A stretch of DNA of 64,000 bases from Bacteroidota bacterium (GTDB lineage: Bacteria; Bacteroidota; Ignavibacteria; Tepidaquicellales; Tepidaquicellaceae). Location: the NCBI GenBank assembly GCA_036782875.1, contig DAIPYG010000002.1, positions 23,340 to 87,339 of the forward strand, in the 5' to 3' direction. Of this stretch, positions 6,701 through 53,969 are shown in pieces. Position 1 is the stretch's first letter. Each line of letters begins with the position of its first letter. The notes below the pieces were generated by a model that was not told where the DNA came from, ran no database searches, and saw only the letters and a program-made list of their open reading frames with translations. The translations under genes were made by a program, and so were the position numbers.

Positions 6701-6937
6701 AAGATTTAGTTTATCTCACCTTAGCATACAAACAACTATAATTTTCATAAAATCAAAAGAACACAATTTCTAAAGAAACAATCTTTATCTAAGGGTTTTG
6801 TTTTGGATGGTGTAAATTACAAAATGTATACTATTGATTCAACAAACTTATTTAAAATTACGAATAAATTATTAATGTGGATTTTAACAAATTATTTTTC
6901 CTGTTTAAAAAAATAAATTCAGAATATAAAAGAAAAT

Positions 6938-7525
6938 CTATCTGAATATTGCGCTTATAGTTTTAAAAATCACCTTTATGTCATTCCCAAAAGATCTCTG
7001 TTCAATATACTCGAGGTTCAGCTTGAGTTTATCAGGCATTACATATTCAATATAATATTCTTCAGGATCGTCGGCTTTCTCAAGCAGTTCATTCTCATTT
7101 CTGTATTTAATTGATGCAATGTCTGTTATTCCCGGAAGGACGCTCAGAACTTTCTTTTGCTCTTCATTATAAAGATCTACGTATTTCCTGACCTCAGGTC
7201 TGGGACCGACAAAACTCATTTCTCCCTTTATTATATTAATCAGCTGCGGCAGCTCATCTAATTTGAATTTTCTTAAATAATATCCGGCTCCTGTAATCCT
7301 GTTATCTCTTCCTCCGACTGTCAGCAATCCGCTTTTATCGGAATCTGCCCGCATTGTCCTGAACTTATACAAACTGAAATCTGTATTATTTTTACCCACG
7401 CGTGTTTGTTTATAAAATATTTTACCTTTTGAGTCAATCTTAATCCATATTGCAGTTATAAGGAATAACGGTGAAAGCAGTATTGTACCAATTAACGAGA
7501 ATAAAAGGTCAAATATTTTTTTCAT
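6938..7525 (-). CDS. Initiating phosphoglycosyltransferase (small bacterial sugar transferase, PglC/WcfS type)
   Basis: 195 aa with a single N-terminal TM helix. Motifs YKFRTM, DELPQL, SFVGPRPE and PGITD are present. Confidence 0.9.
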   Translation of the reverse strand: MKKIFDLLFSLIGTILLSPLFLITAIWIKIDSKGKIFYKQTRVGKNNTDFSLYKFRTMRADSDKSGLLTVGGRDNRITGAGYYLRKFKLDELPQLINIIKGEMSFVGPRPEVRKYVDLYNEEQKKVLSVLPGITDIASIKYRNENELLEKADDPEEYYIEYVMPDKLKLNLEYIEQRSFGNDIKVIFKTISAIFR

Positions 7526-7579
7526 TAGGATCTGATATTAAATATAAACTTATTCATTAGGTTTAATTAGGAACAATAA

Positions 7580-8794
7580 TTATCCAGTAATAACTTTTTG
7601 ACAGGATTCAATTACGGAGTTAATGACCGTATTGATTTCATTATCAGTAAGCTGCGGATATACAGGCAGTGTGATCTCCCTTGAATAGTTATCATAACTG
7701 ACCGGATAATCCTCTATTTTATAATCTCTTTCTCTGAATATTTTCAGCATCGGCAGAGGAATGAAATGAACATTTACAGCAACTTCTTTTTTATTTATCT
7801 CTTCTATAATCCTGTCTCTCTGATCTTCCGTGATGTTTTTAATTCTGAGAAGATAAACGTGATATGAAGTTTCCTTATCTTTGTCTAATGATGGGGGAAG
7901 TTCAGCCCAGTCTGTTTGCCTGAATGCTTCATTGTATTTTTCAAAGATCAGTTTTCTTCTAAGAAGCAGATCATCATTATACTTTCTTATTTGAGCAAGT
8001 CCGACAGCCGCACAAAGATCATTCAGGTTTATTTTAAAACCGGGATACACTATGTCATATCTCCAGTTGCCACCCTGTGATTTTGTAAATGCATCTTTAG
8101 TCTGCCCGTTCAGTGAAAGCAGTCTTAACCATTGATAGAGTTCATCATTATTGAATTTTGCCGGAAGGTTAAGGCAAATTGCTCCGCCTTCGGCAGTCGT
8201 TACATTTTTCACGGCATGAAAAGAAAAAACTGTTGAATCGCATAAAGTACCGCTTGGCTTTCCTTTATATACAGCGCCTATCGAATGCGCGGAATCTGCC
8301 ATTACAAATATGCGTCCGAGCATTCTCTGATTCTCATTTACGGAAATAAACATCTTTTTAATTTCTTCATCATTTACAATTTTATCTATCTCATCATAGT
8401 CACACGGGTAGCCGCCAATATCAACCGGAATAATGGCTTTGGTCCGGGGCGTGATCGCCTTTCGGATCCCGTTTGTGTTAATGCAGAAATCTTTATTAAC
8501 ATCCACTATCACTGCTTTTGCGCCAAGATGCATTACGGCAAGAGCAGTAGCACAGTATGTATATGCGGGAATGATCACTTCATCACCTTTGCCGATTCCG
8601 AACCAGTGAAGCATCAGCATCATTGCTGATGTAGCAGAGTTTACACAAAGGACATTTTTTACTCCGGTAAGCTTTGCAACTTCATTCTCTAGAGCTTTAA
8701 CTTTTGGACCGGTTGTTATCCAGCCGGATCTTAACGAATCGAGAACTTCATTCGTAACGTCCTCATCTATATAAGGTGGTGAAAATGGTATCAT
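7580..8794 (-). CDS. DegT/DnrJ/EryC1/StrS-family sugar aminotransferase (PglE/WcfR-like)
   Basis: 404 aa with PLP-lysine motif FSFHAVKNVTTAEGG. The ATG at 8794 forms an ATGA overlap with the upstream stop. Confidence 0.85.
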   Translation of the reverse strand: MIPFSPPYIDEDVTNEVLDSLRSGWITTGPKVKALENEVAKLTGVKNVLCVNSATSAMMLMLHWFGIGKGDEVIIPAYTYCATALAVMHLGAKAVIVDVNKDFCINTNGIRKAITPRTKAIIPVDIGGYPCDYDEIDKIVNDEEIKKMFISVNENQRMLGRIFVMADSAHSIGAVYKGKPSGTLCDSTVFSFHAVKNVTTAEGGAICLNLPAKFNNDELYQWLRLLSLNGQTKDAFTKSQGGNWRYDIVYPGFKINLNDLCAAVGLAQIRKYNDDLLLRRKLIFEKYNEAFRQTDWAELPPSLDKDKETSYHVYLLRIKNITEDQRDRIIEEINKKEVAVNVHFIPLPMLKIFRERDYKIEDYPVSYDNYSREITLPVYPQLTDNEINTVINSVIESCQKVITG

Positions 8795-10395
8795 TTGTTT
8801 CCTGTTTGTTTAATTTGCGTTCTGAAATTTTTAATCTGATAAATTAAAAAAGGTATGCTGAAGTAAAGTATGAATTCAAGAATATAACTGTACCGGGTTA
8901 TTGATGTGCCTAATATGCTTATGAACAAAGCGTTCATCATAAACATAAATCCGAATATAAAAGGAATAAAGATTCCGGGATCTTTGAATTTTGTTTTTAT
9001 GACCATATATGCAGATAGTGCAAAATTCATTATGAAGATATATATCCATATAATATTTCTGAACAGATAATTACAAAATCTTTCATAGACTTCAAACATC
9101 TGTTTAAGCAAAGTATCCTGAAACAATACAGAGCCATCCGAATATTTAACATATTCAAATCTGCCATGATCATTTACCTGCATATTATAGAGTTCTATTA
9201 CTTCTGCAGCAGCTGTTTTGTCGGAATAAAACTGCTCCCAGTAATCATCTTCAAGGATCTTCACATAATAGTTATCTGCATATATTCTCTGATAAGATCT
9301 TGACAGCTGAGAAAAAAATTTCATTTCTTCGGAAATGTTATTCATGAACTGATATAAATTGCTGATCAAAATCCTTGCATAGACTGCAGGATTATTTATG
9401 ATCGCTTTTTTTGTGATCTGTGCAAGATACGGCTGAATATCCATGTATGTCAATGTGCTGTCTTCTTTCATTACGAAGCCTACAAACCTCCAGGATCTGA
9501 AAAGATTATCATTGAATATTCTGAACAACTTCTTAATTTCCTTTGGATCCTTAACATACGCTCTTTCTTTTTTGGGAATTGAATCAAGTGTAATTTTTAT
9601 TGCACTGTTGATTTCCGGGGGATAGTCAGGTGATTCCTCCATATACAGTATTGTCGTTGCAAAAAAGCTCAGGTCTCCAACCGGTGATATTGTAAATTTT
9701 TTTAATGTAAAATAATTATATGCGCACATTGATAATATTAAAACAGTCATTGGTAATATCAGACTTGTATATTTTCTGATGTCATATTTATTAATAATAA
9801 AAAAAACAAGTATGACAAATATTACGGGTATCAGGAACAGAGCTGCCGGTCTTATTATAATTAGAATCGCGGCAGTAACTGAGAATAATATCCAGTCTGA
9901 TGTCCTGTTATCTTTCAATGACCTCAAAAGATAAGAACAGTTGATCATTATAAAACTGACGAACAGGGATTCCGACAGAACAGAGAATTCAAGAACAAGA
10001 AAGAAAGTAGATGTAATAAATACCGAAATTGCAGCAGCAAAGTACAATGCTTCAGATGTATAATATCTGCAGATTGTCCGGTATAAAAATAATGCAGAAA
10101 ATAAAGCTATCAGACTCTGAAAAACATATGTCAGGATAAAGTTCTTTGAAATCAGAAATACAAAAGTTAAGAGGAAGGGATAACCTGGAGTTCTCATATC
10201 AAACAGAGGGAAACTCAGGTCAAGCATTTTTAATGCAATGGCACAGTAAGACGCACTGTCAGCTGAAATATCAACAACCGGATAGTAAAAGTAATACATC
10301 AGCCTTGTTAAAAGAAATACGGCAGTTATTACCGCAGATCCGGCAATAAACTTATTCTGATAATCATACTTATTTATTATTCCTGGATGTTCCAA
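8791..10395 (-). CDS. Polytopic membrane protein, GT-C (ArnT/PMT)-like candidate with a large hydrophilic insert
   Basis: 534 aa with many hydrophobic helices. The first-loop motif DISADSASY...MRTPGYPFLL resembles GT-C enzymes. A hydrophilic segment of about 190 aa (residues ~245-440) precedes the C-terminal helices. TTG start. Confidence 0.45.
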   Translation of the reverse strand: MEHPGIINKYDYQNKFIAGSAVITAVFLLTRLMYYFYYPVVDISADSASYCAIALKMLDLSFPLFDMRTPGYPFLLTFVFLISKNFILTYVFQSLIALFSALFLYRTICRYYTSEALYFAAAISVFITSTFFLVLEFSVLSESLFVSFIMINCSYLLRSLKDNRTSDWILFSVTAAILIIIRPAALFLIPVIFVILVFFIINKYDIRKYTSLILPMTVLILSMCAYNYFTLKKFTISPVGDLSFFATTILYMEESPDYPPEINSAIKITLDSIPKKERAYVKDPKEIKKLFRIFNDNLFRSWRFVGFVMKEDSTLTYMDIQPYLAQITKKAIINNPAVYARILISNLYQFMNNISEEMKFFSQLSRSYQRIYADNYYVKILEDDYWEQFYSDKTAAAEVIELYNMQVNDHGRFEYVKYSDGSVLFQDTLLKQMFEVYERFCNYLFRNIIWIYIFIMNFALSAYMVIKTKFKDPGIFIPFIFGFMFMMNALFISILGTSITRYSYILEFILYFSIPFLIYQIKNFRTQIKQTGNK

Positions 10396-22745: not shown

Positions 22746-23756
22746 TTATAAATTCAGGTCTGTATCATAAAGAGTAAAATAAAAATAATCCTTACTGCTG
22801 AATTTAATTTTGTCGGAATAGTAAATTACTTTTTCATCATTTCTCGATCTTATAAATCCTGCAGAAGCAAGCAATTGCATTTCTCTTTCGCTGTTGGATA
22901 AGATCTGAATAGTTTTTGCCTTCTCGTCTGAAGCAAGCTTCATTACAACAGACAGCATGGATTTAAGATCACTGTCTTCTGTACAATGCCATTCATAAAT
23001 ATTGAAGTACGGTTTAAAATAAGAATACAGTGCGTAGCTGCCGTTAGATGATCTCATAGCTTTTATTTCGGGAGAATAGTTCAGAAATCCCGATGCCCTC
23101 CATTTCAGAAATTCCTCATCATGCAGAATCTGTAAGCTGATGCTTTCATCCTGCCTTTGCTTTACTGATCCGGCAACATCTTTCCAGCTGCATAAGTTGA
23201 AATAATTTTCTTTAACGTTTAATTTTTTCCTTTTTAAAGAAAAGTAAGGTTTTAAAATCTTACCAATTACAGGAACAGCAAATGAGAATTTTTTCGGAAC
23301 TGCCCAGCTTATCAATTGCCCGGGATCAATCGGAAACACCATTAGCCGCCCGCTGTTTACAGCATTAAATCCCGCCTTTAGCATCAGCACTTCAGCTTTT
23401 GGACTGGGATTATTTCCAAGTGTAATTTTATCCCGCTTCATTCCTGCTTCGAAGAGCATATTTCCCGTACCGAGCTTTCTGTACTCCGGATCTACAATCA
23501 GATCACAAGCCCATTGAGCTTCATAATTTTTTTTTCCGTGCCTGAGCTTTACTGGCAAAAGACCAAGCTGACCAATGATCTTATCTTCAAGCTTAGCAAG
23601 TAAGAGTCCCTCTACAACACCCTTTTCAGGACCTCTGAATTTCCATCGGTTATATATTTCCGATCTTCTTCTTTTCTTATCCGGCCATACCTTAGCAGCA
23701 AATTCACCGTGAGATTTTACAAGTTCATCTGAATATGGTCTGATCTCTATTTTAAT
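22746..23756 (-). CDS. GNAT-like acyltransferase; N-terminus extended to a non-canonical ATT start
   Basis: The track ORF (22746-23558) starts at an internal TTG. The frame is open to 23762 and the extension reads like a GNAT N-terminus (IEIRPYSDELVKSHGEFAAKVWP...). The acetyl-CoA-site-like YRKLGTGNMLF follows. The start-codon choice is uncertain. Confidence 0.6.
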   Translation of the reverse strand: MKIEIRPYSDELVKSHGEFAAKVWPDKKRRRSEIYNRWKFRGPEKGVVEGLLLAKLEDKIIGQLGLLPVKLRHGKKNYEAQWACDLIVDPEYRKLGTGNMLFEAGMKRDKITLGNNPSPKAEVLMLKAGFNAVNSGRLMVFPIDPGQLISWAVPKKFSFAVPVIGKILKPYFSLKRKKLNVKENYFNLCSWKDVAGSVKQRQDESISLQILHDEEFLKWRASGFLNYSPEIKAMRSSNGSYALYSYFKPYFNIYEWHCTEDSDLKSMLSVVMKLASDEKAKTIQILSNSEREMQLLASAGFIRSRNDEKVIYYSDKIKFSSKDYFYFTLYDTDLNL

Positions 23757-24624
23757 TTTTACTCACTCCTGCTGAGAAATGTTTACCGATATAATCTGTA
23801 ACTGTAAACACTTCTATCTGTTCTTTTGAAATTCCGTTCTTTATTTTTTCCATAAAGCGATTGAAATGAGAAACGCTTTCGGATTTGTTCCGGCTTAAAG
23901 CAGCAGGATGTCCGACTATTACAAGAGTTTCATTGAGCTCAATAGCTTTATTGAGATACTTTTCCGCATAGTCATCAAAACCGGTATAATGCTGAGGTAC
24001 ACATACTATCCCGTTGTGTATTTCCCATTCAGAAAAAAATATTTCATCATCATTCCTCTTACTTATAATTTTTTTCCATACCGGATCATAACTTCTCAAA
24101 ACCCTGCACCATTTATAATTTAAAATTGAAAGCTGCTTCAAAATATACCCGGTGTCAGAACCTTTGTGAAAAGGATAAAATCCCCTGTCACCAAGACTGA
24201 CAGAATATTTTCTATACCAGCTCATCGGTCTGCTGTGAGGAGGAACAAATCCGGTGACAACATCTTTTTTACCAATGCATTCTTCAAGTGCATACTTGCT
24301 CCTTTCCAGAGATCTGTAAATCTGTTTATCTGTAAGATAAGGGAACCACTCGTGCTTCCAAGAATGAGATGCTATCTCGTGTCCGCTTTCAAATATTCTC
24401 TTTATCTGTTCCGGATTGTTAAAAGGCAACAGACCTTTTTCAGCAGCAAACCCAAGACAGGCAAATGTCATTTTAATGCCAAACTCATTTGCTTTGCTTA
24501 TAATATACTCTACGTTTTCAATTTCCTGATAAATCGGGTCATACTTGAAATTATAGGGAAAAGATGAATTGATCTGACCTATGGCTGAATCATAGTCCCA
24601 TATTATCACTAATTTAGCTGACAT
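23752..24624 (-). CDS. Polysaccharide deacetylase (CE4 / NodB-homology, ArnD-like)
   Basis: 290 aa with His motif HEIASHSWKHEW and the overall NodB-type pattern. Confidence 0.75.
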   Translation of the reverse strand: MSAKLVIIWDYDSAIGQINSSFPYNFKYDPIYQEIENVEYIISKANEFGIKMTFACLGFAAEKGLLPFNNPEQIKRIFESGHEIASHSWKHEWFPYLTDKQIYRSLERSKYALEECIGKKDVVTGFVPPHSRPMSWYRKYSVSLGDRGFYPFHKGSDTGYILKQLSILNYKWCRVLRSYDPVWKKIISKRNDDEIFFSEWEIHNGIVCVPQHYTGFDDYAEKYLNKAIELNETLVIVGHPAALSRNKSESVSHFNRFMEKIKNGISKEQIEVFTVTDYIGKHFSAGVSKN

Positions 24625-26065
24625 TATTTACGCTGATCTCGTAATTAACTTTACCCGGTGAACTATTTTTTCTTTGAGACAACGCTACTGCAAATACCGG
24701 AAAAAGCAAATAAGGGAAATTATATCTTGCTCTGGTTTCGGATACCGGGAACAGGGCTAATGTATAACTAAGATATGCCCACAGAATATAAACAGATACC
24801 GGAGAAAACTTTTTATTCCTTAATAAAAAAACAAAAGGGAAAAACAATATAACCCAGAAAAAAAAATTTTCTACCGCCTGAAAAAAAGCTTCATAATATC
24901 CTGCGTTCGGATATTTAGTATACTGAAAGAAATAACTGACAGTCCAGTCCTGTCTTCCTGAAAACTTTATCATTTTAAAAGGAAGTCCTTTTATTAATAC
25001 ATCCGGATGGCTTTTAACAAAATCAAAGGTTTCTTTCTTAAGCGCATCATCAAATTCAACTTCCGGCAGCTTGCTGTATTTATTCATTACCGAATCAGGT
25101 ACTCCGTTGTAATCGCCTACTTTTTTCGGATCTGTAGTTACATTGCTGCTGTATAGCCCCAGCCCGGTGGTTGGCATAAGACGTATTGTTCCGTACAGCA
25201 TATAATTTCTGTAAATCCAGGGAGAATAAAACAGAAGAAAGCTTACATATATCAGACCCAGACGACTTAATGAATATGACATATTCCTGTCGGAATGCTT
25301 TTCAATTATGAATGGTATGAGAATGAATATCATCAGGAAATTAAATCTGATATACATCTCAGCAGCAAGTAATACTCCTATTAATATAAGCTGAGAAGTC
25401 TTACCGGTATAATTTTTCAGTACAATGAAAAGCAGTATCAGAAAGAAAAAAAATGACAACTGTGTGTTTGAATTGGATGCCATGAAAAGCATATTCGGAG
25501 AAACGGATAAATATGCAAATGAGAAAACAGCAGCTATGTTGCCCAGATCTTTAAACAGATAAAAACCGGATATTAAAACTCCCAGAGAAAAAAGTATCAT
25601 GATCACAGCATAAGTGACAGGATGATTATAAATAAGGAGTCCGGCAGCAAATACAGCAGGTAATCCCGGCTGTCTGAAATTTCTAAGCTCAACTCCGGCA
25701 AAGTCATAGAATTCTCCTTCGGTTGCCATCCTCTGACCAAGCTTTTCGTGTTTCTCATAATCACTGTCCTGTACAGGTCTGTCATACAGATCATGGACTG
25801 CAAAAATAATTCTTAATACTATTCCTGAGATAAGAAGTATTTTAAAAATTCTTTCTTTTCTGACTTCGAATATATTATTCTTAATAATTCTGTAAACTAA
25901 AAACAAAGCTGCAGCTATAAGCAACAGCTCTATTATATAATCTGCTTCCCTGTATTTTATCACCATGAAAGCCCTGTTCAAAATACCGGACAGGATCAGC
26001 AGGGAAAGAAGTATGATGTTTCCCCACCTTCCTGAAGAATTATAAGCTCTTAATAACCTATCCAT
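24614..26065 (-). CDS. GT-C fold glycosyltransferase, ArnT/PMT (GT39/GT83)-like
   Basis: 483 aa, polytopic. The first periplasmic loop carries DSDYEKHEKLG...FRQPGLPAVFAAGL. Confidence 0.65.
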   Translation of the reverse strand: MDRLLRAYNSSGRWGNIILLSLLILSGILNRAFMVIKYREADYIIELLLIAAALFLVYRIIKNNIFEVRKERIFKILLISGIVLRIIFAVHDLYDRPVQDSDYEKHEKLGQRMATEGEFYDFAGVELRNFRQPGLPAVFAAGLLIYNHPVTYAVIMILFSLGVLISGFYLFKDLGNIAAVFSFAYLSVSPNMLFMASNSNTQLSFFFFLILLFIVLKNYTGKTSQLILIGVLLAAEMYIRFNFLMIFILIPFIIEKHSDRNMSYSLSRLGLIYVSFLLFYSPWIYRNYMLYGTIRLMPTTGLGLYSSNVTTDPKKVGDYNGVPDSVMNKYSKLPEVEFDDALKKETFDFVKSHPDVLIKGLPFKMIKFSGRQDWTVSYFFQYTKYPNAGYYEAFFQAVENFFFWVILFFPFVFLLRNKKFSPVSVYILWAYLSYTLALFPVSETRARYNFPYLLFPVFAVALSQRKNSSPGKVNYEISVNNVS

Positions 26066-27203
26066 TTTCAGTAAAGAATGCTTTTATTTTATCTGTTACA
26101 AAATCAAGATCATCATCAGACAACTCATAGTATAAAGGAAGTCTCAGAAGGTGATCGGTGTAGTAATCAGAATATTTCATATCGTGATTTTCTGATTTTT
26201 CTTTATAGTAAGGACTTTTATCAAGAGAAAGATAATGAAATACAGCATAGATGCCATTTGATTTCAGGAATTCAATCAGCCTGTTTCTTTCATCAAGACT
26301 TCTGCATAAAATATAAAACATATGCGCATTGTTAGTTGCATAATCAGGTAATTTCTGAAAACTGATAAATCCTTTCTCTGAAAGATCCCTGAGTTTATCG
26401 TGATAGTAATTCCAAATGTGCTTTCTCTTATTTTGAATGTCATCAAGATTCTCAAGCTGTGCAAAGAGAAATGCAGCAATAATGTCCGACGGAAGAAATG
26501 AAGAACCAATATCCACCCAGCCGTATTTATCTACTTCACCTCTGAAAAAAGCTGAACGATTTGTCCCCTTTTCCCTGATTATCTCAGCCCGCTCTGCAAA
26601 TCTTTCGTCATTTATAACCAGCATTCCGCCTTCTCCGGAAATGACATTCTTTGTTTCGTGAAATGAAAATGCTGCAAGATGACCAATAGAACCAAGAGGC
26701 TTTTCATTATAATAAGAGTCTATGGAATGCGCTGCATCCTCTATTACAAAGAGTCCATGATCTTCTGCTAATTTCATTAAAGGATCCATATCAACTGCTA
26801 TTCCGGCATAATGAACAACGATAATTGCTTTTGTCTTAGGAGTAATAAGTTTTTTAATCTTTCTTATGTCAATGTTCGGAGATTCCGACTCACTGTCACA
26901 GAAAATTATTTTAGCTCCCCTCAGAACAAATGCATTTACCGAAGATACAAATGTATAAGAAGGAGCAATTATCTCATCACCGGCTTTTGTATCAATCAGT
27001 ATAGCTGCCATCTCAAGCGCATCAGTGCAGGATGTTGTAAGGAGTACTTTCTTAAAACCGAATCTCTTCTCGAAAAACTCATGACACTTTTTTGTAAATA
27101 AACCGTCCCCTGATATTTTCCTAGTCTCTACAGACTCCAGAATATACTTGGTTTCCTTACCTGTGAGATAAGGTTTATTGAATCCTATGTGACGTTTTTT
27201 CAA
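26058..27203 (-). CDS. WecE/RffA-like 4-keto-6-deoxyhexose aminotransferase (DegT family)
   Basis: 381 aa with FNKPYLTGKE, ISGDGLFTKKCHEF, LLTTSCTDALEMAA and PSYTFVSSVNAFVLRGA. The PLP lysine is in FSFHETKNVISGEGG. TTG start. Confidence 0.85.
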   Translation of the reverse strand: MKKRHIGFNKPYLTGKETKYILESVETRKISGDGLFTKKCHEFFEKRFGFKKVLLTTSCTDALEMAAILIDTKAGDEIIAPSYTFVSSVNAFVLRGAKIIFCDSESESPNIDIRKIKKLITPKTKAIIVVHYAGIAVDMDPLMKLAEDHGLFVIEDAAHSIDSYYNEKPLGSIGHLAAFSFHETKNVISGEGGMLVINDERFAERAEIIREKGTNRSAFFRGEVDKYGWVDIGSSFLPSDIIAAFLFAQLENLDDIQNKRKHIWNYYHDKLRDLSEKGFISFQKLPDYATNNAHMFYILCRSLDERNRLIEFLKSNGIYAVFHYLSLDKSPYYKEKSENHDMKYSDYYTDHLLRLPLYYELSDDDLDFVTDKIKAFFTENG

Positions 27204-27214
27204 ATTTAATATTT

Positions 27215-27257
27215 AGTATTGGGGCATTAAGTATTCAGTATTTAGTATTGAGTATTA
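27215..27257. repeat. AGTATT hexamer motif: four tandem heptads plus one outlier
   Basis: AGTATT occurs at 27215, 27230, 27237, 27244 and 27251. The last four are contiguous heptads AGTATTC/AGTATTT/AGTATTG/AGTATTA. The repeat lies in the 148-bp gap directly upstream (minus sense) of the TTG start at 27203. Confidence 0.8.
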
Positions 27258-27351
27258 GTTTGTTTGGTGTGAATAAAGATCTTCTATTTATTTCTCAATG
27301 TTTATTTCACATTTATACATTTAATACTTATAGTTGTTAAATGTTCATAAT

Positions 27352-28284
27352 TCATTGTTCATTGATCAGCACCGCCAGTCCCACACCTGTTTTTCCGTAA
27401 CTGTTTCCATTATAAAGCATATATCTCATCCCTTTAAAATCATACAGATAAGAATATTCAATCATTTCAGAATCCCAGCCGGTTTCTGATATGTCAAGAT
27501 TTATTTTTTCATCCATCCTGTTCCATTTAATTCCGTCATTAGATTCGGCATATCCGATTCTGTAAGTATTTATACCTTTTCCTTCCCTGTAAGAATACCA
27601 CATTTTATAAATGCCGTTTTCCTTCATTACAAACGGGCGGGCGATAGCGTATTCGAATTCATTCTTAAAATCTATGCAAACGATCCCTTCTCTCTTAAAA
27701 TTAATTCCGTCATCCGATTCCGCATATCTGATATTATAATAGTGTTTCAGCTTACCTTCTTCCACTGTCCATTTTATCAGTGATACATACCAGATTTTCC
27801 ATTTGCCGTCATCTATCAGAACATAAGGTGCAAAAGTTGAGTAAGGATCAGTTTCATTTGAAAACAACACTGCAGGACCTCTGGATTTTTTTAAGAAAGT
27901 TTTGCCATCATCGCCGCTGATTGCAACACCATTAAAAGAAAAGAAAGGTACATTTTTTCCTAATGTCCAACCGTTGTAATACAAATATTTTTTATCATTA
28001 TGATTTACCAGGCAAGTTGGCATTATCCCTGAGTCGTCAAATGCTCCCAGCTGTCCCAGCTTCAACACGGGTTCTTTACTTATACTGATTATTTTGAAAG
28101 GATCATTAAGATTTATTTCAATAAAAGCTCCCTGCGACCTTCCTTTAATATCTCTTGCAGAAAAATAAATTTTCGCAATGTCGTTTTCATAAATATCTAT
28201 GACCGGCATCATTGCATGCGTAAGCATCCAGCCGGTTTCTCCGTCAGGACTATAAATGAGACCAAGTTTTTTCCAGTTCTGCAC
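27352..28284 (-). CDS. Predicted beta-propeller protein (GH43/GH130-like fold), function unknown
   Basis: 310 aa with no signal peptide. Blade-like segments recur: KIYFSARD, YLYYNGW, KIWYVS, YKMWYSY, YMLYNG. GTG start. The fold call is an inference. Confidence 0.45.
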   Translation of the reverse strand: MQNWKKLGLIYSPDGETGWMLTHAMMPVIDIYENDIAKIYFSARDIKGRSQGAFIEINLNDPFKIISISKEPVLKLGQLGAFDDSGIMPTCLVNHNDKKYLYYNGWTLGKNVPFFSFNGVAISGDDGKTFLKKSRGPAVLFSNETDPYSTFAPYVLIDDGKWKIWYVSLIKWTVEEGKLKHYYNIRYAESDDGINFKREGIVCIDFKNEFEYAIARPFVMKENGIYKMWYSYREGKGINTYRIGYAESNDGIKWNRMDEKINLDISETGWDSEMIEYSYLYDFKGMRYMLYNGNSYGKTGVGLAVLINEQ

Positions 28285-28299
28285 TATATTATTAATATT

Positions 28300-28974
28300 T
28301 TAAGATATCTGAATTTCATCACTTTTTTTATCAAACAAAGTCGATCGGGCTGGAAGATAAACTCCTTTTTCCACCGTATCCTTCATTATTATTGCACCTG
28401 CTGCTATCAGAGTTTCAGGTGCTATGGTAATTGCATCACGCAGAGTGGCATTTACTCCGATGAAACAGTTTCTCTTTATTGTTACAAACCCGGATACTAC
28501 TACATGCGAAGAAATAAAATTGTGATCTTCGATCTTTACATCATGACCAATATGATTACCGCTCCAAAGTACTACATTGTTGCCGATCCTGACATAAGGC
28601 TGAATAGTATTATCCTCAAGTATAAAACAGTTATCTCCCGGCGGGAACTGTGACAGATAAGAACAGTGAGAGCTGATATAATTTGCCATACGGTATCCTT
28701 TTGATTTACATTCATTGTATAAAGCTTCTCTTATTTTATTCATATTATTATAACCTACAGCAACAAATGCTTCATATTCTGAAGATTGATATTTGGATTC
28801 AAGTTCTTCAAGAGCTGTAACAGGCAGATCCTCAAAGACAGGAGAAGCTATGTATTTTTCATTGACCGAAAAAGCGCAGACTTCATATTCAGAATCAGTT
28901 TCAAAGAAAAACTTTGCCAGCCTGGCATTCGATGTGTTTCCTATTATTACGAGTTTCTTATTTTTTTCTCTCAT
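28300..28974 (-). CDS. NeuD/PglD-family sugar N/O-acyltransferase (left-handed beta-helix)
   Basis: 224 aa. An N-terminal Rossmann-like KLVIIGNTSNARLA is followed by hexapeptide repeats (IGNNVVLWSGNHIGHDVKIEDHNFISSHVVVSG...). ATGA overlap at 28971-28974. Confidence 0.75.
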   Translation of the reverse strand: MREKNKKLVIIGNTSNARLAKFFFETDSEYEVCAFSVNEKYIASPVFEDLPVTALEELESKYQSSEYEAFVAVGYNNMNKIREALYNECKSKGYRMANYISSHCSYLSQFPPGDNCFILEDNTIQPYVRIGNNVVLWSGNHIGHDVKIEDHNFISSHVVVSGFVTIKRNCFIGVNATLRDAITIAPETLIAAGAIIMKDTVEKGVYLPARSTLFDKKSDEIQIS

Positions 28975-29666
28975 GATTTAAATGATTTCATAAATTTAGG
29001 TGAATTTGGACCTTCATTGAAGATTAGATCGATAATGCTTACTGCATGCGTGAATTCCCCGTGAAGCTGTTCGTATTCAGGGTAGCCGGAATAATCAAAA
29101 TAATGAACTCTGATGTTTTCTTTTTCAAAAAGCTCTTCGTTCATATATGCCTTTGCTGCTGGTCCGGAATAATAATCAGTTGCTCCCAGAGTTTTACAGA
29201 TATCCACAAGTCTCTCCGTCTTTTCCTCAAGAAGATTAAACTCATCGGACCAGATCATCTTAGTTTTAATTCCGAGAATCTCACAGATGGTTTTTATAAA
29301 ATTATAATTTACTTTGCTCAGATATTCTTCTTTACTATTGAGATAAAGCTTTTCGAATATTTGCTTGTATTCATTGAAATATTTTGCCCGGGAGTAATTG
29401 TGTATAATTGTATTCCAGTGCTTCTCTGCCCAGTCAGGTTCGCTTATCTTTGTTTCCTTTATCTTTTGAAAATATTTGCCCTTTACTTCGACAGGTATTG
29501 TCAGCCACTTTACGCCGTCTCTTGTCTTTATCTGATTCCTGTTGCGCCAGTCCCTTCTTGTAAACTGCATATCGTCATATAATACAAATTCATCGACCAT
29601 GTTTATCGAATCGAAATATCCTTTCCAGGGAATATAGTTTGACTGTGTGATAATAATTTTTTTCAA
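28971..29666 (-). CDS. wbqC: WbqC-family protein (function unknown)
   Basis: 231 aa. N-terminus ITQSNYIPWKGYFDSINMVDEFVLYDDMQFTRRDWRNRNQIKT matches the WbqC-like signature. TTG start. Confidence 0.75.
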   Translation of the reverse strand: MKKIIITQSNYIPWKGYFDSINMVDEFVLYDDMQFTRRDWRNRNQIKTRDGVKWLTIPVEVKGKYFQKIKETKISEPDWAEKHWNTIIHNYSRAKYFNEYKQIFEKLYLNSKEEYLSKVNYNFIKTICEILGIKTKMIWSDEFNLLEEKTERLVDICKTLGATDYYSGPAAKAYMNEELFEKENIRVHYFDYSGYPEYEQLHGEFTHAVSIIDLIFNEGPNSPKFMKSFKS

Positions 29667-29667
29667 A

Positions 29668-30600
29668 TTACAGATTTAATTTTTCATCAATTATATAAAG
29701 AGGTCTTTGCTTTGTCTGCTCGAATATTTTACCGATATATATTCCGGCAATTCCTATGCTCATAAGGATCAGTCCTGTTGAAAACAATATTGCCACGATG
29801 AGGCTCGGCCAGCCTGGCTGAAACTTAAGAAGAAAATAACTAAGCACTATGCTCAGTCCTGCCAGCAATGACAAAATGGAAATTATCAGACCTGTATAAA
29901 TAGATAATCTTAACAGCTTGTCCGAATATGATGTCCAGCCCTGAAGAGCTGTGACAAACAGTTTCGAAATTGAATAAGTTGAACTGCCTTCATACCTTTC
30001 CCTGTGTTCTACCGGAACATATGTTGATCTGAATCCAACCCATTTTATCAGCTGAATGTAAAGTCTGTCCTGATCCCTGAGTTTTAAAAATTCATCCTTT
30101 ACCCTTCGGCTGATCATTGTCATTGAACCGACATTAAGGTCATAATTTTTATCGGAAAACATTTTAAATAATGAGTTGTAAATCTTTGCGGTTATCATTT
30201 TAAAAAATGAATGCTTCCTTCCTATCCTTCTGGTAAAAACAACATCATAGCCATTCCCGAATTCGTCAAGTAATTTTTTTATGTGAACAGGATCATCCTG
30301 AAGATCACAGTCCATAATAACTATAATATCCCCGGAAGCCCTGCTCAGTCCGGCTGTAATTGCATAATGCTGACCGAAGTTCCTGCTGAGTTTAATTCCC
30401 TTGACCCTTTTATCTCTTATGCAGTTCTCTTCTATCTTTAGCCATGAACTGTCACCGCCTCCGTCTTCCACAAGAATTATTTCATAATTTTCTGTAATTT
30501 TGGAAAGAGATTCAGACAATCTTTTTACAAGTTCATCTACTATCTTTTCAGATTTGTAAACAGGACTTACAACTGAAATAAATTTTCCTGATTGAGTCAT
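29668..30600 (-). CDS. GT2 polyprenyl-phosphate sugar synthase (ArnC/GtrB/DPM1-like)
   Basis: 310 aa with ISVVSPVYKSE, ILVEDGGGD and IMDCDLQDDP, plus two C-terminal TM helices. Confidence 0.8.
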   Translation of the reverse strand: MTQSGKFISVVSPVYKSEKIVDELVKRLSESLSKITENYEIILVEDGGGDSSWLKIEENCIRDKRVKGIKLSRNFGQHYAITAGLSRASGDIIVIMDCDLQDDPVHIKKLLDEFGNGYDVVFTRRIGRKHSFFKMITAKIYNSLFKMFSDKNYDLNVGSMTMISRRVKDEFLKLRDQDRLYIQLIKWVGFRSTYVPVEHRERYEGSSTYSISKLFVTALQGWTSYSDKLLRLSIYTGLIISILSLLAGLSIVLSYFLLKFQPGWPSLIVAILFSTGLILMSIGIAGIYIGKIFEQTKQRPLYIIDEKLNL

Positions 30601-45341: not shown

Positions 45342-46469
45342 TTATTTAAGAAAGTTTTTCAGTTTTGAAATAACAAGTTCAATATCACTGTTTTCCATAG
45401 GTATATATAAAGGAATCATAATGCTTCTGTCACTTGCATCTTCTGAATCCGGCAGTTGAATTTCTCTGTAATCGTTTTTATATGCGCTTTCCCTGTGGCT
45501 GGTCATTATACCGCGCCTGGAAGCTATACCTGCATTCAATAGTTTCTGCATAAGTTCATTTCTGCTGATTCCGCAGGTCTCCTTCAGGTAAACACTAAAT
45601 GACTGATAGTTCGAATAATATCCTTCTTTCTCCTCAGGCAATAAAACACATTCAATTTCTTTTAACTCTTTGATGTATCTTAATGCAATTTCTCTTCTTT
45701 GCCTGATAATCCAGTCAAGCTTTTCAAGCTGCTTTAATCCTATGGCTGCCTGAAAATCAGTCATCCTGTAATTGTACCCTACCTCAAGATGATCTTCAAA
45801 CAATACTTTATCAGACTGATGTCTGACCCTGTCATTTACGGACATAGCGTGCTGTCTTAGAAGTTTCATTCTTTTATAATAATCGGGATTTGATGTGGTA
45901 ATCATTCCTCCTTCACCTGTCGTGATCACCTTCCTTGGATGAAATGAAAAACAAACCAGTTCAGAATGACAACCTATCTTTTTCCCTTTATACGAAGAAC
46001 CTATTGCACACGCAGCATCTTCAATTAGCTTAATATTTTTTTTTTCACATAATGCCTTGAAAGAATCTATGTCTGCCGGCATTCCTATCTGATGTACAAT
46101 GAGTATTGCTTTTGTTTTTTCCGTTATTAATTTTTCCGCATGCTCTATGCTTATGTTATAGGTTTCTTTTTCCACCTCGGCAAATACGGGTTTTGCACCT
46201 ACATACTTTATACAGTTTGCTGTTGCGACATAGCTCAATGAAGGACAGATTACTTCATCGCCTTTACTGATTCCAGCAGCTATCATAGCCAGATGAAGAG
46301 CTGTTGTACAGTTGGATACGGCTACCGCGTATTCCGCGCCTGTATATTCGCAGAACTTTTTTTCAAACTCCTCCACTCTCGGACCCTGTGTAACCCATCC
46401 TGTGAGAATAGTATCATAAGCACTCTGCGCTTCGTCCTTTGTTAAGTAAGGTTTTGCTATGGGTATCAT
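45342..46469 (-). CDS. DegT-family sugar aminotransferase (ArnB-like)
   Basis: 375 aa with PLP lysine in FSFHPRKVITTGEGGM. Confidence 0.85.
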   Translation of the reverse strand: MIPIAKPYLTKDEAQSAYDTILTGWVTQGPRVEEFEKKFCEYTGAEYAVAVSNCTTALHLAMIAAGISKGDEVICPSLSYVATANCIKYVGAKPVFAEVEKETYNISIEHAEKLITEKTKAILIVHQIGMPADIDSFKALCEKKNIKLIEDAACAIGSSYKGKKIGCHSELVCFSFHPRKVITTGEGGMITTSNPDYYKRMKLLRQHAMSVNDRVRHQSDKVLFEDHLEVGYNYRMTDFQAAIGLKQLEKLDWIIRQRREIALRYIKELKEIECVLLPEEKEGYYSNYQSFSVYLKETCGISRNELMQKLLNAGIASRRGIMTSHRESAYKNDYREIQLPDSEDASDRSIMIPLYIPMENSDIELVISKLKNFLK

Positions 46470-46470
46470 T

Positions 46471-47448: not shown

Positions 47449-47466
47449 TTTTAAATTAATTTATAA

Positions 47467-50337: not shown

Positions 50338-50343
50338 TTTTAT

Positions 50344-51381: not shown

Positions 51382-51407
51382 CTGATTTAAGTAACCGGGT
51401 TGGTAAA

Positions 51408-52340: not shown

Positions 52341-52382
52341 ATATACTTTGAAATTATATCTATCTTATTAATCGACATAAAT

Positions 52383-53900: not shown

Positions 53901-53969
53901 ATAAAATTAAATTGGTTTTTATTTATTCCTTTTTACATCATAAGGCAAGTATGTGTGCTGAATCGAATT

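What the first reader, a model, noticed from the sequence alone, without database searches (positions are those of the whole stretch)
23752..30600. Second Arn-like module containing two unknown-function families (WbqC and a beta-propeller)
In transcription order the genes are: an ArnC-like GT2 (29668), WbqC (28971), a NeuD/PglD-type acyltransferase (28300), a 310-aa beta-propeller-like protein (27352) and a WecE-like aminotransferase (26058). These are followed by an ArnT-like GT-C (24614) and a CE4 deacetylase (23752, ArnD-like position). Aminotransferase, acyltransferase, Und-P-sugar synthase, deacylase and GT-C are the logic of the Arn pathway applied to a different, probably 4-amino-6-deoxy, sugar. 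WbqC and the propeller protein sit in the middle and have no assigned chemistry. No RmlA/RmlB-type genes for the dTDP-4-keto-6-deoxyhexose substrate expected for a WecE-like enzyme are present in the window.
Basis: inference. Interest (0 to 1): 0.65.

Follow-up and report, generated by a model that had tools for sequence, protein, structure and literature searches.

The report
Lipid-carrier amino-sugar decoration cassette
Seven co-transcribed genes most likely build an N-acylated 4-amino-6-deoxy sugar, load it on a membrane lipid carrier and attach it to a surface glycan outside the cytoplasm. It is a local variant of a cassette found in hundreds of species, and two of its conserved enzymes (WbqC and a glycosidase-fold propeller) have no known chemistry.

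Summary
All seven genes are at the stated coordinates and the family calls hold. They are a GtrB/ArnC-type polyprenyl-phosphate GT2, WbqC, a PglD/VioB-type hexapeptide N-acetyltransferase, a cytoplasmic five-bladed propeller, a WecE-type aminotransferase, a polytopic GT-C-like membrane protein and a CE4 deacetylase.

The missing dTDP-sugar precursor genes are not a gap: the same genome has a true RmlA and a true RmlB on other contigs.

In 69 propeller-bearing loci from other phyla:
- 62 carry the acyltransferase;
- 52 carry WbqC;
- 52 carry the aminotransferase;
- 42 carry the GtrB/ArnC-like GT2;
- many also carry GtrA- or EamA-like small membrane proteins and PMT_2-like membrane proteins.

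So the make-load-flip-attach logic is supported. The ArnD-like CE4 and this particular membrane protein occur only in Ignavibacteria relatives.

WbqC and the propeller also occur in nonulosonic-acid clusters that lack the GT2, so they tailor the sugar rather than serve the carrier step. WbqC folds as a Rossmann-type nucleotide-binding domain, with BshC as a weak best match. I propose it adds an amino acid to the sugar amine, with moderate to low confidence. The propeller lacks the GH130 catalytic aspartate and its role is open.

The closest characterised relative is the mycobacterial LOS-IV capping locus. This is a new variant of a known kind.

The parts
29668..30600 (-). GtrB/ArnC-type polyprenyl-phosphate glycosyltransferase (GT2), 310 aa, with two C-terminal TM helices
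   Evidence: PF00535 2.7e-26. NCBIfam PgfS 9e-61 and ArnC 3e-48, both below the equivalog cut-offs. PDB GtrB 5EKE 3.5e-56 and ArnC 9HWJ/9BHC about 1e-42 over residues 6-306. TM helices start at residues 228 and 262.
28971..29666 (-). WbqC-family protein, 231 aa, soluble, Rossmann-like; proposed amino-acid:amino-sugar ligase or transferase (inferred)
   Evidence: PF08889 281 bits. AlphaFold2 pLDDT 96.9. Foldseek best hits are weak: BshC 4WBD (E 0.014, prob 0.96, TMq 0.42) and TagD cytidylyltransferase (prob 0.92). There is no sequence-level link to BshC.
28300..28974 (-). Left-handed beta-helix N-acyltransferase of the NeuD/PglD/VioB type, 224 aa
   Evidence: TIGR03570 158.1 bits against a cut-off of 160.8; Hexapep 1.2e-15; weak PglD_N match. 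PDB PglD 9e-14, PerB and QdtC. It lies immediately upstream of the propeller in nearly all related loci.
27352..28284 (-). Cytoplasmic five-bladed beta-propeller, 310 aa, distant and apparently blade-permuted relative of GH130; function unknown
   Evidence: PF04041 26.0 bits, equal to the cut-off. AlphaFold2 pLDDT 91.5. Foldseek hits GH137, GH117, GH130 and GH43 with TM 0.66-0.75 at about 15% identity. hhalign to GH130 gives probability 95% with blades offset by two, and Arg216 at the position of the GH130 'EDPR' aspartate. No signal peptide or TM helix.
26058..27203 (-). WecE-type PLP aminotransferase (dTDP-4-keto-6-deoxy-D-glucose to dTDP-4-amino-4,6-dideoxyhexose), 381 aa
   Evidence: NF008687 558.8 bits (cut-off 375); TIGR02379 511.3 bits (cut-off 434.85); DegT 3e-87.
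24614..26065 (-). Polytopic membrane protein, 483 aa, probable GT-C glycosyltransferase of the PMT_2/ArnT-like kind; the family is restricted to Ignavibacteria relatives
   Evidence: 7-10 TM helices. PMT_2 E 0.0026, in only 1 of 25 family members. No PDB hit by sequence or by profile. hhalign to true PMT_2 proteins gives probability 87%, E 3.6e-6 over 238 columns, against 0.3% for the reversed control. Only 59 homologues, all at least 55% identical.
23752..24624 (-). CE4 polysaccharide deacetylase, 290 aa, cytoplasmic; lineage-specific accessory
   Evidence: PF01522 2.3e-15. Best NCBIfam match is the XrtA-system deacetylase at 45 bits, far below cut-off, with no ArnD match. Present in 10 of 11 Ignavibacteria loci (split in one) and in 0 of 69 loci elsewhere.

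Best explanation
The seven genes are the Ignavibacteria version of a widespread cassette. The cassette makes a decorated 4-amino-4,6-dideoxyhexose and delivers it through a polyprenyl-phosphate carrier.

Proposed steps:
1. RmlA and RmlB, encoded elsewhere in the genome, supply dTDP-4-keto-6-deoxy-D-glucose. (Gene presence shown; use inferred.)
2. The WecE-type aminotransferase makes dTDP-4-amino-4,6-dideoxyhexose, probably Fuc4N. (Family membership shown; product inferred.)
3. The 4-amine is decorated in the cytoplasm. WbqC, a Rossmann-type nucleotide-binding protein, attaches an amino-acid-type acyl group. The PglD/VioB-type transferase caps an amine with acetyl. The propeller then carries out a further, non-hydrolytic tailoring step on the acylated sugar. 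(All inferred. The WbqC step has confidence about 0.3. The propeller step is unassigned.)
4. The GtrB/ArnC-type GT2 transfers the sugar to undecaprenyl phosphate. (Family shown; donor inferred.)
5. The lipid-linked sugar is flipped. No flippase gene lies in this module. Related cassettes carry GtrA- or EamA-like genes.
6. The GT-C-like membrane protein transfers the sugar to a periplasmic acceptor, most likely the polysaccharide made by the surrounding 60-kb locus. (Inferred.)
7. The CE4 enzyme may remove an acetyl group at the lipid-linked stage, as ArnD removes formyl. This step is specific to the lineage. (Weakly inferred.)
For: - Gene identities.
- Precursor genes in the genome.
- Synteny in Ignavibacteria: GT2-WbqC-LbH-propeller-aminotransferase-membrane protein in 11 of 11 relatives.
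- Cassette across phyla: of 69 loci outside Ignavibacteria, 62 have the acyltransferase, 52 WbqC, 52 the aminotransferase, 42 the GtrB/ArnC-like GT2 and 40 a methyltransferase of about 212 aa. Sixteen have EamA-like and 7 have GtrA-like small membrane proteins. Thirty-five have a protein of at least 400 aa and at least 7 TM helices in or next to the cassette.
- Some of those large membrane proteins resemble PMT_2 by hhalign, at 94.5% and 96.5% probability. The window's own membrane protein scores 87%, against 0.3% for a reversed control.
- WbqC as ligase, line 1: the fold search puts BshC and HUP-class nucleotidyltransferases first.
- WbqC as ligase, line 2: a published operon reads ProRS paralogue-GT4-WbqC-LmbE-tRNAProX-murG (PMC10404621).
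- WbqC as ligase, line 3: the E. coli O121 antigen carries amide-linked N-acetylglycine (PMC7685785). WbqC is reported from an E. coli O-antigen cluster (PMC5532660). From my own knowledge, the family was named from the O121 cluster.
- WbqC as ligase, line 4: FemAB-like genes (PF13480) occur only in cassettes without WbqC, 4 of 19 against 0 of 55.
- WbqC as ligase, line 5: WbqC is found fused to GNAT and to PseG/PseH-like domains.
- Chemistry anchor: the M. marinum LOS-IV cap is a pyrrolidone-substituted dideoxygalactose (PMC12507525). Making it requires wecE, mmar_2318 and the membrane protein mmar_2319 (PMC4703794). Rv1503c-Rv1507c form one operon containing an aminotransferase, an acyltransferase and a methyltransferase (PMC2936551). 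The published Rv1507c primer encodes MKKVAIVQS, which matches the WbqC N-terminal consensus.
Against: - No flippase gene lies in or next to the window's module.
- The GT-C assignment rests on one profile-profile match at 87%. Pfam PMT_2 hits only 1 of 25 family members. PDB sequence and profile searches find nothing.
- CE4 has no ArnD-specific similarity and is absent outside the clade.
- WbqC shows no sequence-profile similarity to BshC: hhalign probability 0.2%. The fold match is weak (TMq 0.42, E 0.014).
- Some complete cassettes have neither WbqC nor a FemAB-like gene, for example the Pseudomonas loci L122 and L123.
- WbqC is in 51% of sampled Bacteroidota genomes, often outside glycan loci, so the family may have more than one function.
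- No biochemical result exists for any step.
Confidence: 0.6

Rival explanations
1. Ordinary cytoplasmic route. The module only supplies dTDP-Fuc4NAc or dTDP-Qui4NAc, or a close derivative. One of the locus's many GT4 or GT2 enzymes then builds it into the repeat unit on Und-PP. The GT2 is a conventional transferase, and the 483-aa membrane protein is not a glycosyltransferase.
For: The surrounding locus holds more than ten GT4 and GT2 genes, a Wzy-like protein, a Wzt ATPase and a PglC-like initiating transferase. The GT-C evidence is modest. No flippase gene lies in the module.
Against: The GT2 matches GtrB and ArnC over its full length, including the two C-terminal TM helices typical of polyprenyl-phosphate sugar synthases. 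Orthologous GT2 genes in other phyla sit beside GtrA- or EamA-like small membrane proteins and PMT_2-like proteins. The membrane protein overlaps both neighbours and keeps its position in 11 of 11 relatives.
Confidence: 0.12
2. Same carrier route, but the acceptor is a protein: O-glycosylation of surface proteins, as in the Streptococcus mutans Pgf system or actinobacterial PMT. The acceptor is not the polysaccharide of the locus, and not lipid A.
For: The best NCBIfam hit of the GT2 is PgfS, 9e-61. The membrane protein's only detectable relatives are PMT_2-type proteins.
Against: The module is embedded, without transcription signals above background, in a 60-kb co-directional polysaccharide locus. 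PMT_2 is a broad family that also covers ArnT-like lipid and glycan transferases. No acceptor information exists either way.
Confidence: 0.15
3. WbqC is not a ligase. It could be a nucleotide-sugar-binding enzyme of another kind, for example an isomerase or epimerase that sets the configuration, or a nucleotidyl-transfer enzyme. The acyltransferase alone would then decorate the amine. In this reading the propeller is a GH130-like phosphorylase working in reverse as a glycosyltransferase that adds a second sugar.
For: The WbqC fold hits include cytidylyl- and adenylyltransferases. WbqC has no sequence link to BshC. Some WbqC copies pair only with a small formyltransferase outside glycan loci. 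The propeller belongs to the glycosidase/phosphorylase superfamily and keeps invariant carboxylates D83, E211, D258 and D271.
Against: The GH130 catalytic Asp position holds Arg216 in this family. WbqC is mutually exclusive with FemAB-like genes, is linked to a ProRS paralogue and tRNA operon, and is linked to aminoacylated or pyrrolidone-acylated amino sugars. These points favour acyl or aminoacyl chemistry.
Confidence: 0.13

Closest known systems
Three-component periplasmic glycan modification systems: GtrA/GtrB/GtrC of Shigella and Salmonella phages; ArnC/ArnE-F/ArnT; CsbB/GtcA/YfhO; PgfS/PgfM
   Same: A GtrB/ArnC-type GT2 with C-terminal TM helices, and a polytopic GT-C-like transferase. 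Related cassettes also have GtrA- or EamA-like small membrane proteins. The logic is make, load, flip, attach.
   Different: The donor is a tailored dTDP-4-amino-4,6-dideoxyhexose, not UDP-Glc, UDP-GlcNAc or UDP-Ara4FN. The window has no flippase gene. Two extra conserved enzymes, WbqC and the propeller, have no counterpart in the known systems.
Arn (PmrHFIJKLM) pathway for L-Ara4N on lipid A
   Same: The order of chemistry matches: aminotransferase, N-acyl cap, transfer to Und-P, then possibly de-acylation by a CE4 enzyme and a GT-C transfer.
   Different: None of the genes is an Arn equivalog (ArnB 219 of 631 bits, ArnC 165 of 529 bits). There is no ArnA and no ArnE/F. CE4 has no ArnD-specific match and is confined to one clade. 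The sugar is a 6-deoxyhexose made from a dTDP precursor.
Mycobacterium marinum LOS-IV capping genes and M. tuberculosis Rv1500-Rv1508c (losA locus)
   Same: The gene families match: a GT2 (losA/Rv1500), a WecE aminotransferase, a hexapeptide acyltransferase (Rv1505c) and WbqC (Rv1507c, by its primer-encoded N-terminus). There is also a 302-aa protein, MMAR_2318/Rv1502, that ends in AVLDD like the propeller family, and a 545-aa membrane protein. The product is an N-acylated 4-amino-4,6-dideoxygalactose. Knock-outs of wecE, mmar_2318 and mmar_2319 lose LOS-IV.
   Different: The mycobacterial locus also has a methyltransferase (Rv1506c); the window's module has no methyltransferase. Rv1501 may be a PhyH-type oxygenase, but I recall that from memory and did not check it. 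The acceptor in mycobacteria is a trehalose glycolipid. I could not fetch the MMAR_2318 sequence, so its membership in the propeller family is inferred.
BshC and MshC (cysteine addition to the GlcN amine in bacillithiol and mycothiol synthesis)
   Same: WbqC's best fold match is BshC. The published WbqC operon with GT4, LmbE and a ProRS paralogue mirrors the order BshA/MshA, BshB/MshB, BshC/MshC.
   Different: There is no detectable sequence homology (hhalign 0.2%). WbqC is 231 aa against about 540 aa, and the fold match is weak (TMq 0.42). The biochemical activity of BshC has itself not been reconstituted (own knowledge).
GH130 beta-mannoside phosphorylases (PDB 9FJ8, 7FIP) and the related five-bladed GH families 43, 117 and 137
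   Same: The five-bladed propeller fold and the blade motifs of the type S-x-DG-x-x-W. Like the phosphorylases, the protein is cytoplasmic.
   Different: Identity is about 15%. The sequence-similar blades are rotated by two positions. The GH130 catalytic Asp of the EDPR motif aligns with an invariant Arg. The genomic setting is biosynthetic, beside an N-acyltransferase.
Modified-viosamine flagellin glycosylation island of Pseudomonas syringae (vioA, vioB, vioM, vioR, vioS, vioT)
   Same: An aminotransferase and a hexapeptide N-acyltransferase (plus, in related cassettes, a methyltransferase and a FabG-like reductase) act on a dTDP-4-amino-4,6-dideoxyhexose.
   Different: That system uses a cytoplasmic transferase acting on flagellin, not a lipid carrier.

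Membership tests
WbqC family (PF08889) | Match to the Pfam model above the gathering score over the whole domain | tested here: met
   281.2 bits against 21.3, residues 8-223 on model positions 1-216 of 218.
WecE / dTDP-4-amino-4,6-dideoxyhexose transaminase | Score above the NCBIfam equivalog or subfamily cut-off | tested here: met
   NF008687 558.8 bits (cut-off 375); TIGR02379 511.3 bits (cut-off 434.85).
GtrB/ArnC polyprenyl-phosphate glycosyltransferases | GT2 catalytic domain followed by C-terminal TM helices, with full-length similarity to solved members | tested here: met
   5EKE 3.5e-56 and ArnC about 1e-42 over residues 6-306 of 310. Two TM helices start at residues 228 and 262.
Arn pathway (ArnBCADTEF) | ArnB and ArnC equivalogs | tested here: not met
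   ArnB model 218.6 bits against a cut-off of 631. ArnC model 164.5 bits against a cut-off of 529.
Arn pathway (ArnBCADTEF) | ArnA (UDP-GlcA decarboxylase/formyltransferase) and the ArnE/ArnF flippase in the module | tested here: not met
   The seven genes contain no SDR, no formyltransferase and no small multi-TM gene.
Arn pathway (ArnBCADTEF) | ArnD-type deformylase acting on the lipid-linked sugar | tested here: inconclusive
   The CE4 fold is present (PF01522 2.3e-15). No ArnD model appears among the NCBIfam hits, and the gene is confined to the clade.
GT-C glycosyltransferases (PMT_2/ArnT-like) | Polytopic membrane protein with profile similarity to the N-terminal catalytic module, including the acidic motif in the first outer loop | tested here: inconclusive
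   hhalign probability 87%, E 3.6e-6 over 238 columns, against 0.3% for the reversed control. The conserved segment QDSDY aligns with the PMT_2 W-D-E-x-x-Y region. Pfam PMT_2 reaches only E 0.0026, in 1 of 25 members, and there is no PDB hit.
Gtr-type three-component system | GtrA-like or equivalent small flippase encoded with the GT2 | tested here: not met
   None in the module. The only small 3-TM ORF in the window (2525-2857) has no Pfam hit. GtrA-like genes occur in 7, and EamA-like genes in 16, of the 69 related cassettes.
GH130 glycoside phosphorylases/hydrolases | Pfam membership and the catalytic Asp of the G-x-E-D-P-R motif | tested here: not met
   PF04041 scores 26.0 bits, exactly the cut-off. 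In the 95%-probability hhalign match, the Asp of the EDPR motif aligns with Arg216, which is invariant in the close family. The five-bladed fold itself is met.
NeuD/PglD/VioB sugar N-acetyltransferases | Score above the TIGR03570 cut-off; an N-terminal PglD-type domain followed by a hexapeptide helix | tested here: inconclusive
   158.1 bits against a cut-off of 160.8. PglD_N E 0.005. PglD is the best solved relative, 9e-14.
BshC family | Sequence or profile homology to BshC | tested here: not met
   hhalign of the WbqC alignment against 20 BshC proteins gives probability 0.2%. Only a weak fold match exists.
Mycobacterial LOS-IV capping cassette | Shared set of WecE, hexapeptide acyltransferase, WbqC, propeller, GT2 and a large membrane protein | tested here: inconclusive
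   This rests on the literature and on primer-derived peptides only. Rv1507c begins MKKVAIVQS, matching the WbqC consensus. MMAR_2318 is 909 bp and ends AVLDD, matching the propeller C-terminus GLAVL. The sequences themselves could not be fetched.

The most novel reading that the evidence does not exclude
WbqC is a new family of enzymes that attach amino acids, from an adenylate or from aminoacyl-tRNA, to the amine of nucleotide-linked amino sugars. The blade-permuted GH130-like propeller is a non-hydrolytic tailoring enzyme that reshapes the resulting N-acyl group. One possibility is ring closure of an N-acetyl-aminoacyl group to the 5-oxoproline (pyrrolidone) type substituent seen on the M. 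marinum LOS-IV sugar and on some O-antigens. Together they would explain how aminoacyl- and pyrrolidone-acylated amino sugars are made.
Probability: 0.15. Interest if true: 0.8.

Novelty: new variant of a known kind. Interest (0 to 1): 0.5.

Why it matters
The cassette is present in at least 576 species genomes. These span about 20 bacterial phyla and two archaeal lineages. They include cultivable Pseudomonas, Vibrio, Xanthomonas, Collimonas and Rhizobium strains. The mycobacterial locus that caps LOS-IV belongs to the same kind, and its M. tuberculosis counterpart (Rv1503c-Rv1506c) affects phagosome maturation (PMC2936551).

Two of the near-constant enzymes have no assigned reaction. Assigning them would explain how amino-acid-type and pyrrolidone-type N-acyl groups are put on surface amino sugars. 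It would also improve the annotation of thousands of glycan loci.

For this window alone the gain is modest. It is one lineage-specific arrangement of that cassette, with an added deacetylase and its own GT-C-like transferase.

Tried and rejected
- Sequence and profile searches of WbqC against PDB sequences found nothing useful.
- Profile-profile comparison of WbqC with BshC was negative at 0.2%, so homology to BshC is rejected. Only the analogy remains.
- PDB searches with the membrane protein, as a single sequence and as a profile, found nothing. A Pfam scan of 25 family members gave PMT_2 for the window's copy only.
- Pfam found no family for seven large membrane proteins that flank cassettes in other phyla. 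Single-sequence hhalign to PMT_2 was positive for some (L063 at 96.5%) and negative for others such as L070, L083, L095 and L101. Not every flanking membrane protein can therefore be called GT-C.
- I tried to find E. coli O121-type wbqC genes. A blastn search of E. coli genomes with two gammaproteobacterial WbqC genes gave no match. The supplements of two O-antigen surveys did not contain the term. The paper on Qui4N biosynthesis (PMC2168959) is not held.
- I first read the acyltransferase-propeller pair as the tightest unit. That holds for the close subfamily. In Rhizobium leguminosarum a GNAT takes the place of the hexapeptide enzyme, so the type of acyltransferase is not fixed.
- The promoter and terminator scan gave counts at the level of shuffled sequence and adds nothing beyond the tight gene spacing.
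- I considered the idea that the absence of RmlA and RmlB points to a non-dTDP substrate. I rejected it because both genes are in the genome.

Full report
**Observation.** They are separated by overlaps of 4 to 11 bp or by short gaps; the only larger gap is 148 bp between the propeller and the aminotransferase. Promoter-like and terminator-like sites are no more frequent than in shuffled sequence.

All the family calls hold.
- The GT2 matches the solved polyprenyl-phosphate glucose synthase GtrB (3.5e-56) and ArnC (about 1e-42) over its full length. It has two C-terminal TM helices.
- WbqC matches PF08889 with 281 bits.
- The hexapeptide protein sits just below the NeuD/PglB/VioB cut-off (158.1 against 160.8 bits). 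PglD is its closest solved relative.
- The aminotransferase passes the equivalog cut-off for dTDP-4-amino-4,6-dideoxygalactose transaminase (559 against 375 bits).
- CE4 matches PF01522 (2.3e-15).

**The two weaker calls.** The propeller reaches the GH130 Pfam model exactly at its cut-off (26.0 bits). Its AlphaFold2 model is confident (pLDDT 91.5). The model superposes on five-bladed GH137, GH117, GH130 and GH43 structures with TM 0.66-0.75 at about 15% identity. The protein has no signal peptide.

The 483-aa membrane protein has 7 to 10 predicted TM helices. Its Pfam PMT_2 match is poor (E 0.0026), and only 1 of 25 family members gives it. PDB searches by sequence and by profile were empty. 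I then aligned 23 true PMT_2 proteins taken from related genomes and compared the two profiles. The result was probability 87%, E 3.6e-6 over 238 columns. This region covers the N-terminal module and aligns the conserved QDSDY loop with the PMT_2 W-D-E-x-x-Y region. The reversed-sequence control gave 0.3%. I call the protein GT-C-like with moderate confidence.

**Precursors.** The genome has a true RmlB on contig C3 (486 bits, cut-off 365) and a true RmlA on C8 (418 bits, cut-off 361). The expected dTDP-4-keto-6-deoxyglucose substrate is therefore available.

**Conserved linkage.** The propeller family is large: 6705 proteins at E <= 1e-5, about 55% identical across phyla. It is sparse within the phylum, however: 6 of 301 sampled Bacteroidota genomes. 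WbqC is far commoner, in 154 of 301.

Three metagenomic contexts first showed WbqC, a GT2 of 307-335 aa, a hexapeptide transferase, the propeller and a DegT aminotransferase together. A scan of species-representative genomes found at least 576 carriers, and I kept 80 loci. They cover Bacteroidota, Verrucomicrobiota, Omnitrophota, Acidobacteriota, Nitrospirota, Chloroflexota, Desulfobacterota, Alpha-, Beta- and Gammaproteobacteria, Campylobacterota, Planctomycetota, Cyanobacteria, Myxococcota, Bacillota, a CPR lineage and two archaea.

I annotated these loci with profiles built here and by clustering. All eleven Ignavibacteria loci show the window's order: GT2-WbqC-acyltransferase-propeller-aminotransferase-membrane protein. 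CE4 follows in ten of them.

Among the 69 other loci:
- 62 have the acyltransferase;
- 52 have WbqC;
- 52 have the aminotransferase;
- 42 have the orthologous GtrB/ArnC-like GT2;
- 40 have a SAM methyltransferase of about 212 aa;
- 16 have a small EamA-like protein and 7 have a small GtrA-like protein (Pfam);
- 35 have a protein of at least 400 aa with at least 7 TM helices in or beside the cassette.

The usual order is [large membrane protein]-WbqC-GT2-methyltransferase-acyltransferase-propeller-[small membrane protein]-...-aminotransferase-[large membrane protein]. One recurrent family of these large proteins (about 537 aa) matches PMT_2 at 94.5% probability. A 617-aa example matches at 96.5%, though several others do not match.

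**What is not conserved.** Homologues of the window's CE4 and of its membrane protein occur in none of the 69 other loci. The membrane-protein family has only 59 members, all close relatives. CE4 has no ArnD-specific match, and one Ignavibacteria relative lacks it (L051). The ArnD-like reading is possible but lineage-specific.

The window's module also lacks the methyltransferase and the small membrane protein of the canonical cassette.

WbqC, the propeller and the acyltransferase also occur with PseG/PseH-like and NeuB genes, without the GT2, in at least six loci. What those clusters share with the window is a nucleotide-linked 4-amino-4,6-dideoxyhexose intermediate. I therefore place the two unknown proteins in sugar tailoring, not in the carrier step.

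In Rhizobium leguminosarum plasmid pRlvE the set reads DegT-(IS3)-WbqC-propeller-propeller-GNAT-methyltransferase-glycosyltransferase. The type of N-acyltransferase is therefore interchangeable.

**WbqC.** The AlphaFold2 model is very confident (pLDDT 96.9) and has an alpha/beta Rossmann-like fold. No solved structure matches it strongly. The best are BshC (E 0.014, probability 0.96, TMq 0.42) and a cytidylyltransferase (probability 0.92), followed by class I aminoacyl-tRNA synthetase and adenylyltransferase domains. BshC is the enzyme held to add cysteine to the free amine of GlcN-malate.

Four independent observations point towards aminoacyl chemistry.
1. A published operon reads ProRS paralogue, GT4, WbqC, LmbE deacetylase, tRNAProX, murG (PMC10404621). 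This mirrors the order of the bacillithiol and mycothiol genes.
2. The E. coli O121 antigen carries amide-linked N-acetylglycine (PMC7685785). WbqC is reported from an E. coli O-antigen cluster (PMC5532660). From my own knowledge, the family takes its name from the O121 cluster.
3. FemAB-like genes (PF13480) sit inside the acyltransferase-propeller unit only in cassettes without WbqC: 4 of 19 against 0 of 55. My own hand calculation gives an exact-test p of about 0.003; it was not run in a tool.
4. WbqC occurs fused to GNAT and to PseG/PseH-like domains.

Several results count against the idea. WbqC has no profile similarity to BshC (0.2%). Some complete cassettes have neither WbqC nor a FemAB-like gene. 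Close WbqC copies also pair with a small formyltransferase outside glycan loci. I put the ligase proposal at about 0.3.

**The propeller.** HMMER and hhalign agree that the family is related to GH130 (probability 95%). The sequence-similar blades are offset by two positions: query residues 127-257 align with GH130 positions 6-131, and query residues 1-106 align with positions 178-288. The aspartate of the GH130 G-x-E-D-P-R motif aligns with Arg216, which is invariant in the close family. Across 81 sequences, including distant paralogues, the invariant polar residues are K6, R44, D83, E211, R256, D258 and D271, together with many aromatic residues.

The protein is therefore not a canonical GH130 phosphorylase, but it is probably still an enzyme that binds a sugar or sugar phosphate. 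Its reaction remains unassigned. A ring-closing role on the N-acyl group is a speculation prompted by the LOS-IV structure.

**Chemistry anchor from the literature.**
- The LOS-IV cap is a pyrrolidone-substituted dideoxygalactose (PMC12507525).
- Mutants in wecE, in mmar_2318 (909 bp, homologue of Rv1502) and in the membrane protein mmar_2319 (1638 bp) accumulate LOS-III and lack LOS-IV (PMC4703794).
- Rv1503c-Rv1507c form one operon. Rv1503c is a transaminase, Rv1505c a putative acyltransferase and Rv1506c a methyltransferase (PMC2936551).
- The published Rv1507c primer encodes MKKVAIVQS, which matches the WbqC N-terminal consensus.
- The reverse primer for mmar_2318 encodes a C-terminus ...AVLDD, which fits the propeller family's G-L-A-V-L ending. 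The length of 302 aa also fits.

I could not fetch the mycobacterial sequences, so this link is probable rather than shown. If it holds, there is already genetic evidence that the propeller is needed to add the acylated amino sugar.

**Verdict.** The module is a clade-specific arrangement of a widespread, uncharacterised cassette that delivers a tailored 4-amino-4,6-dideoxyhexose through a lipid carrier. It works like the Gtr and Arn systems but is not a member of the Arn pathway. Its interest lies in the two unassigned enzyme families, for which I give testable proposals and lists of residues to mutate.

Noticed in passing
G000:C100:207-857 (locus L007/L017): A second WbqC paralogue in the same genome, 28% identical to the window's copy (237 bits to PF08889). 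It lies at the start of a 10.8-kb contig. None of the window's ten module or flanking proteins has a homologue beside it.
   Followed up: partly
window 4772-10395 (-): A third amino-sugar set lies at the downstream end of the locus: a PglF-like Polysacc_synt_2 dehydratase (4772-6700), a PglC-like Bac_transf (6938-7525), a DegT aminotransferase (7580-8794) and a true PMT_2 GT-C (8791-10395; 34.6 bits, cut-off 26.1). The window holds four DegT genes in all.
   Followed up: partly
L029:6776-8137 and L030:6441-7792: WbqC copies 56-57% identical to the window's sit next to a 221-aa Formyl_trans_N gene. Their other neighbours are not glycan genes: a tRNA U5-methyltransferase-like protein, a cNMP-binding protein and an amidohydrolase. 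WbqC is present in 154 of 301 sampled Bacteroidota genomes, so the family has a widespread role beyond O-antigen-type loci.
   Followed up: partly
proteins P0244, P0273, P0290, P0313: Natural WbqC fusions exist: tandem WbqC-WbqC (494 aa), Glyco_tran_28_C + GNAT + WbqC (662 aa, PseG/PseH-like), WbqC + SAM methyltransferase (579 aa) and GNAT + WbqC (363 aa).
   Followed up: partly
window 27352-28284 against GH130 alignments: HMMER and hhalign both align blades 3-4 of the propeller with blades 1-2 of GH130, and blades 1-2 with blades 4-5. This is a consistent two-blade rotation and suggests a circular permutation relative to GH130.
   Followed up: partly
L025:4287-15022 and L118:9000-13000: In some genomes the acyltransferase-propeller pair sits inside a module that matches the window's other Arn-like block (45342-54974). 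That module has homologues of the 50344 orphan protein (50% identity), the GFO/IDH/MocA oxidoreductase at 53970 (68%), the 45342 aminotransferase (67%), the SDR, the GT2 at 47467 and a FemAB-like gene. The window's two modules exchange parts in other lineages.
   Followed up: partly
L053 (Ignavibacteria MAG JADJAH010000017.1): In this long-read assembly the aminotransferase, CE4 and AsnB genes of the syntenic locus are each split into two ORFs. These could be frameshift errors or real pseudogenes.
   Followed up: no
L176:7346-8939 (Rhizobium leguminosarum pRlvE, NZ_CP025506.1): An IS3 transposase lies between the DegT gene and a truncated WbqC gene (399 bp), upstream of two tandem propeller paralogues (38% and 33% identical to the window's), a GNAT, a methyltransferase and a glycosyltransferase.
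   Followed up: partly
G000:C33:11964-13562: The genome encodes a full BshC (471 bits, cut-off 266). BshC is present in 40 of 41 sampled genomes of the phylum.
   Followed up: no
window 26058-27203, 28971-29666, 27352-28284: Three of the seven genes can start only at non-ATG codons: TTG, TTG and GTG. This agrees with another first-stage note on the frequent use of TTG starts in this locus.
   Followed up: no
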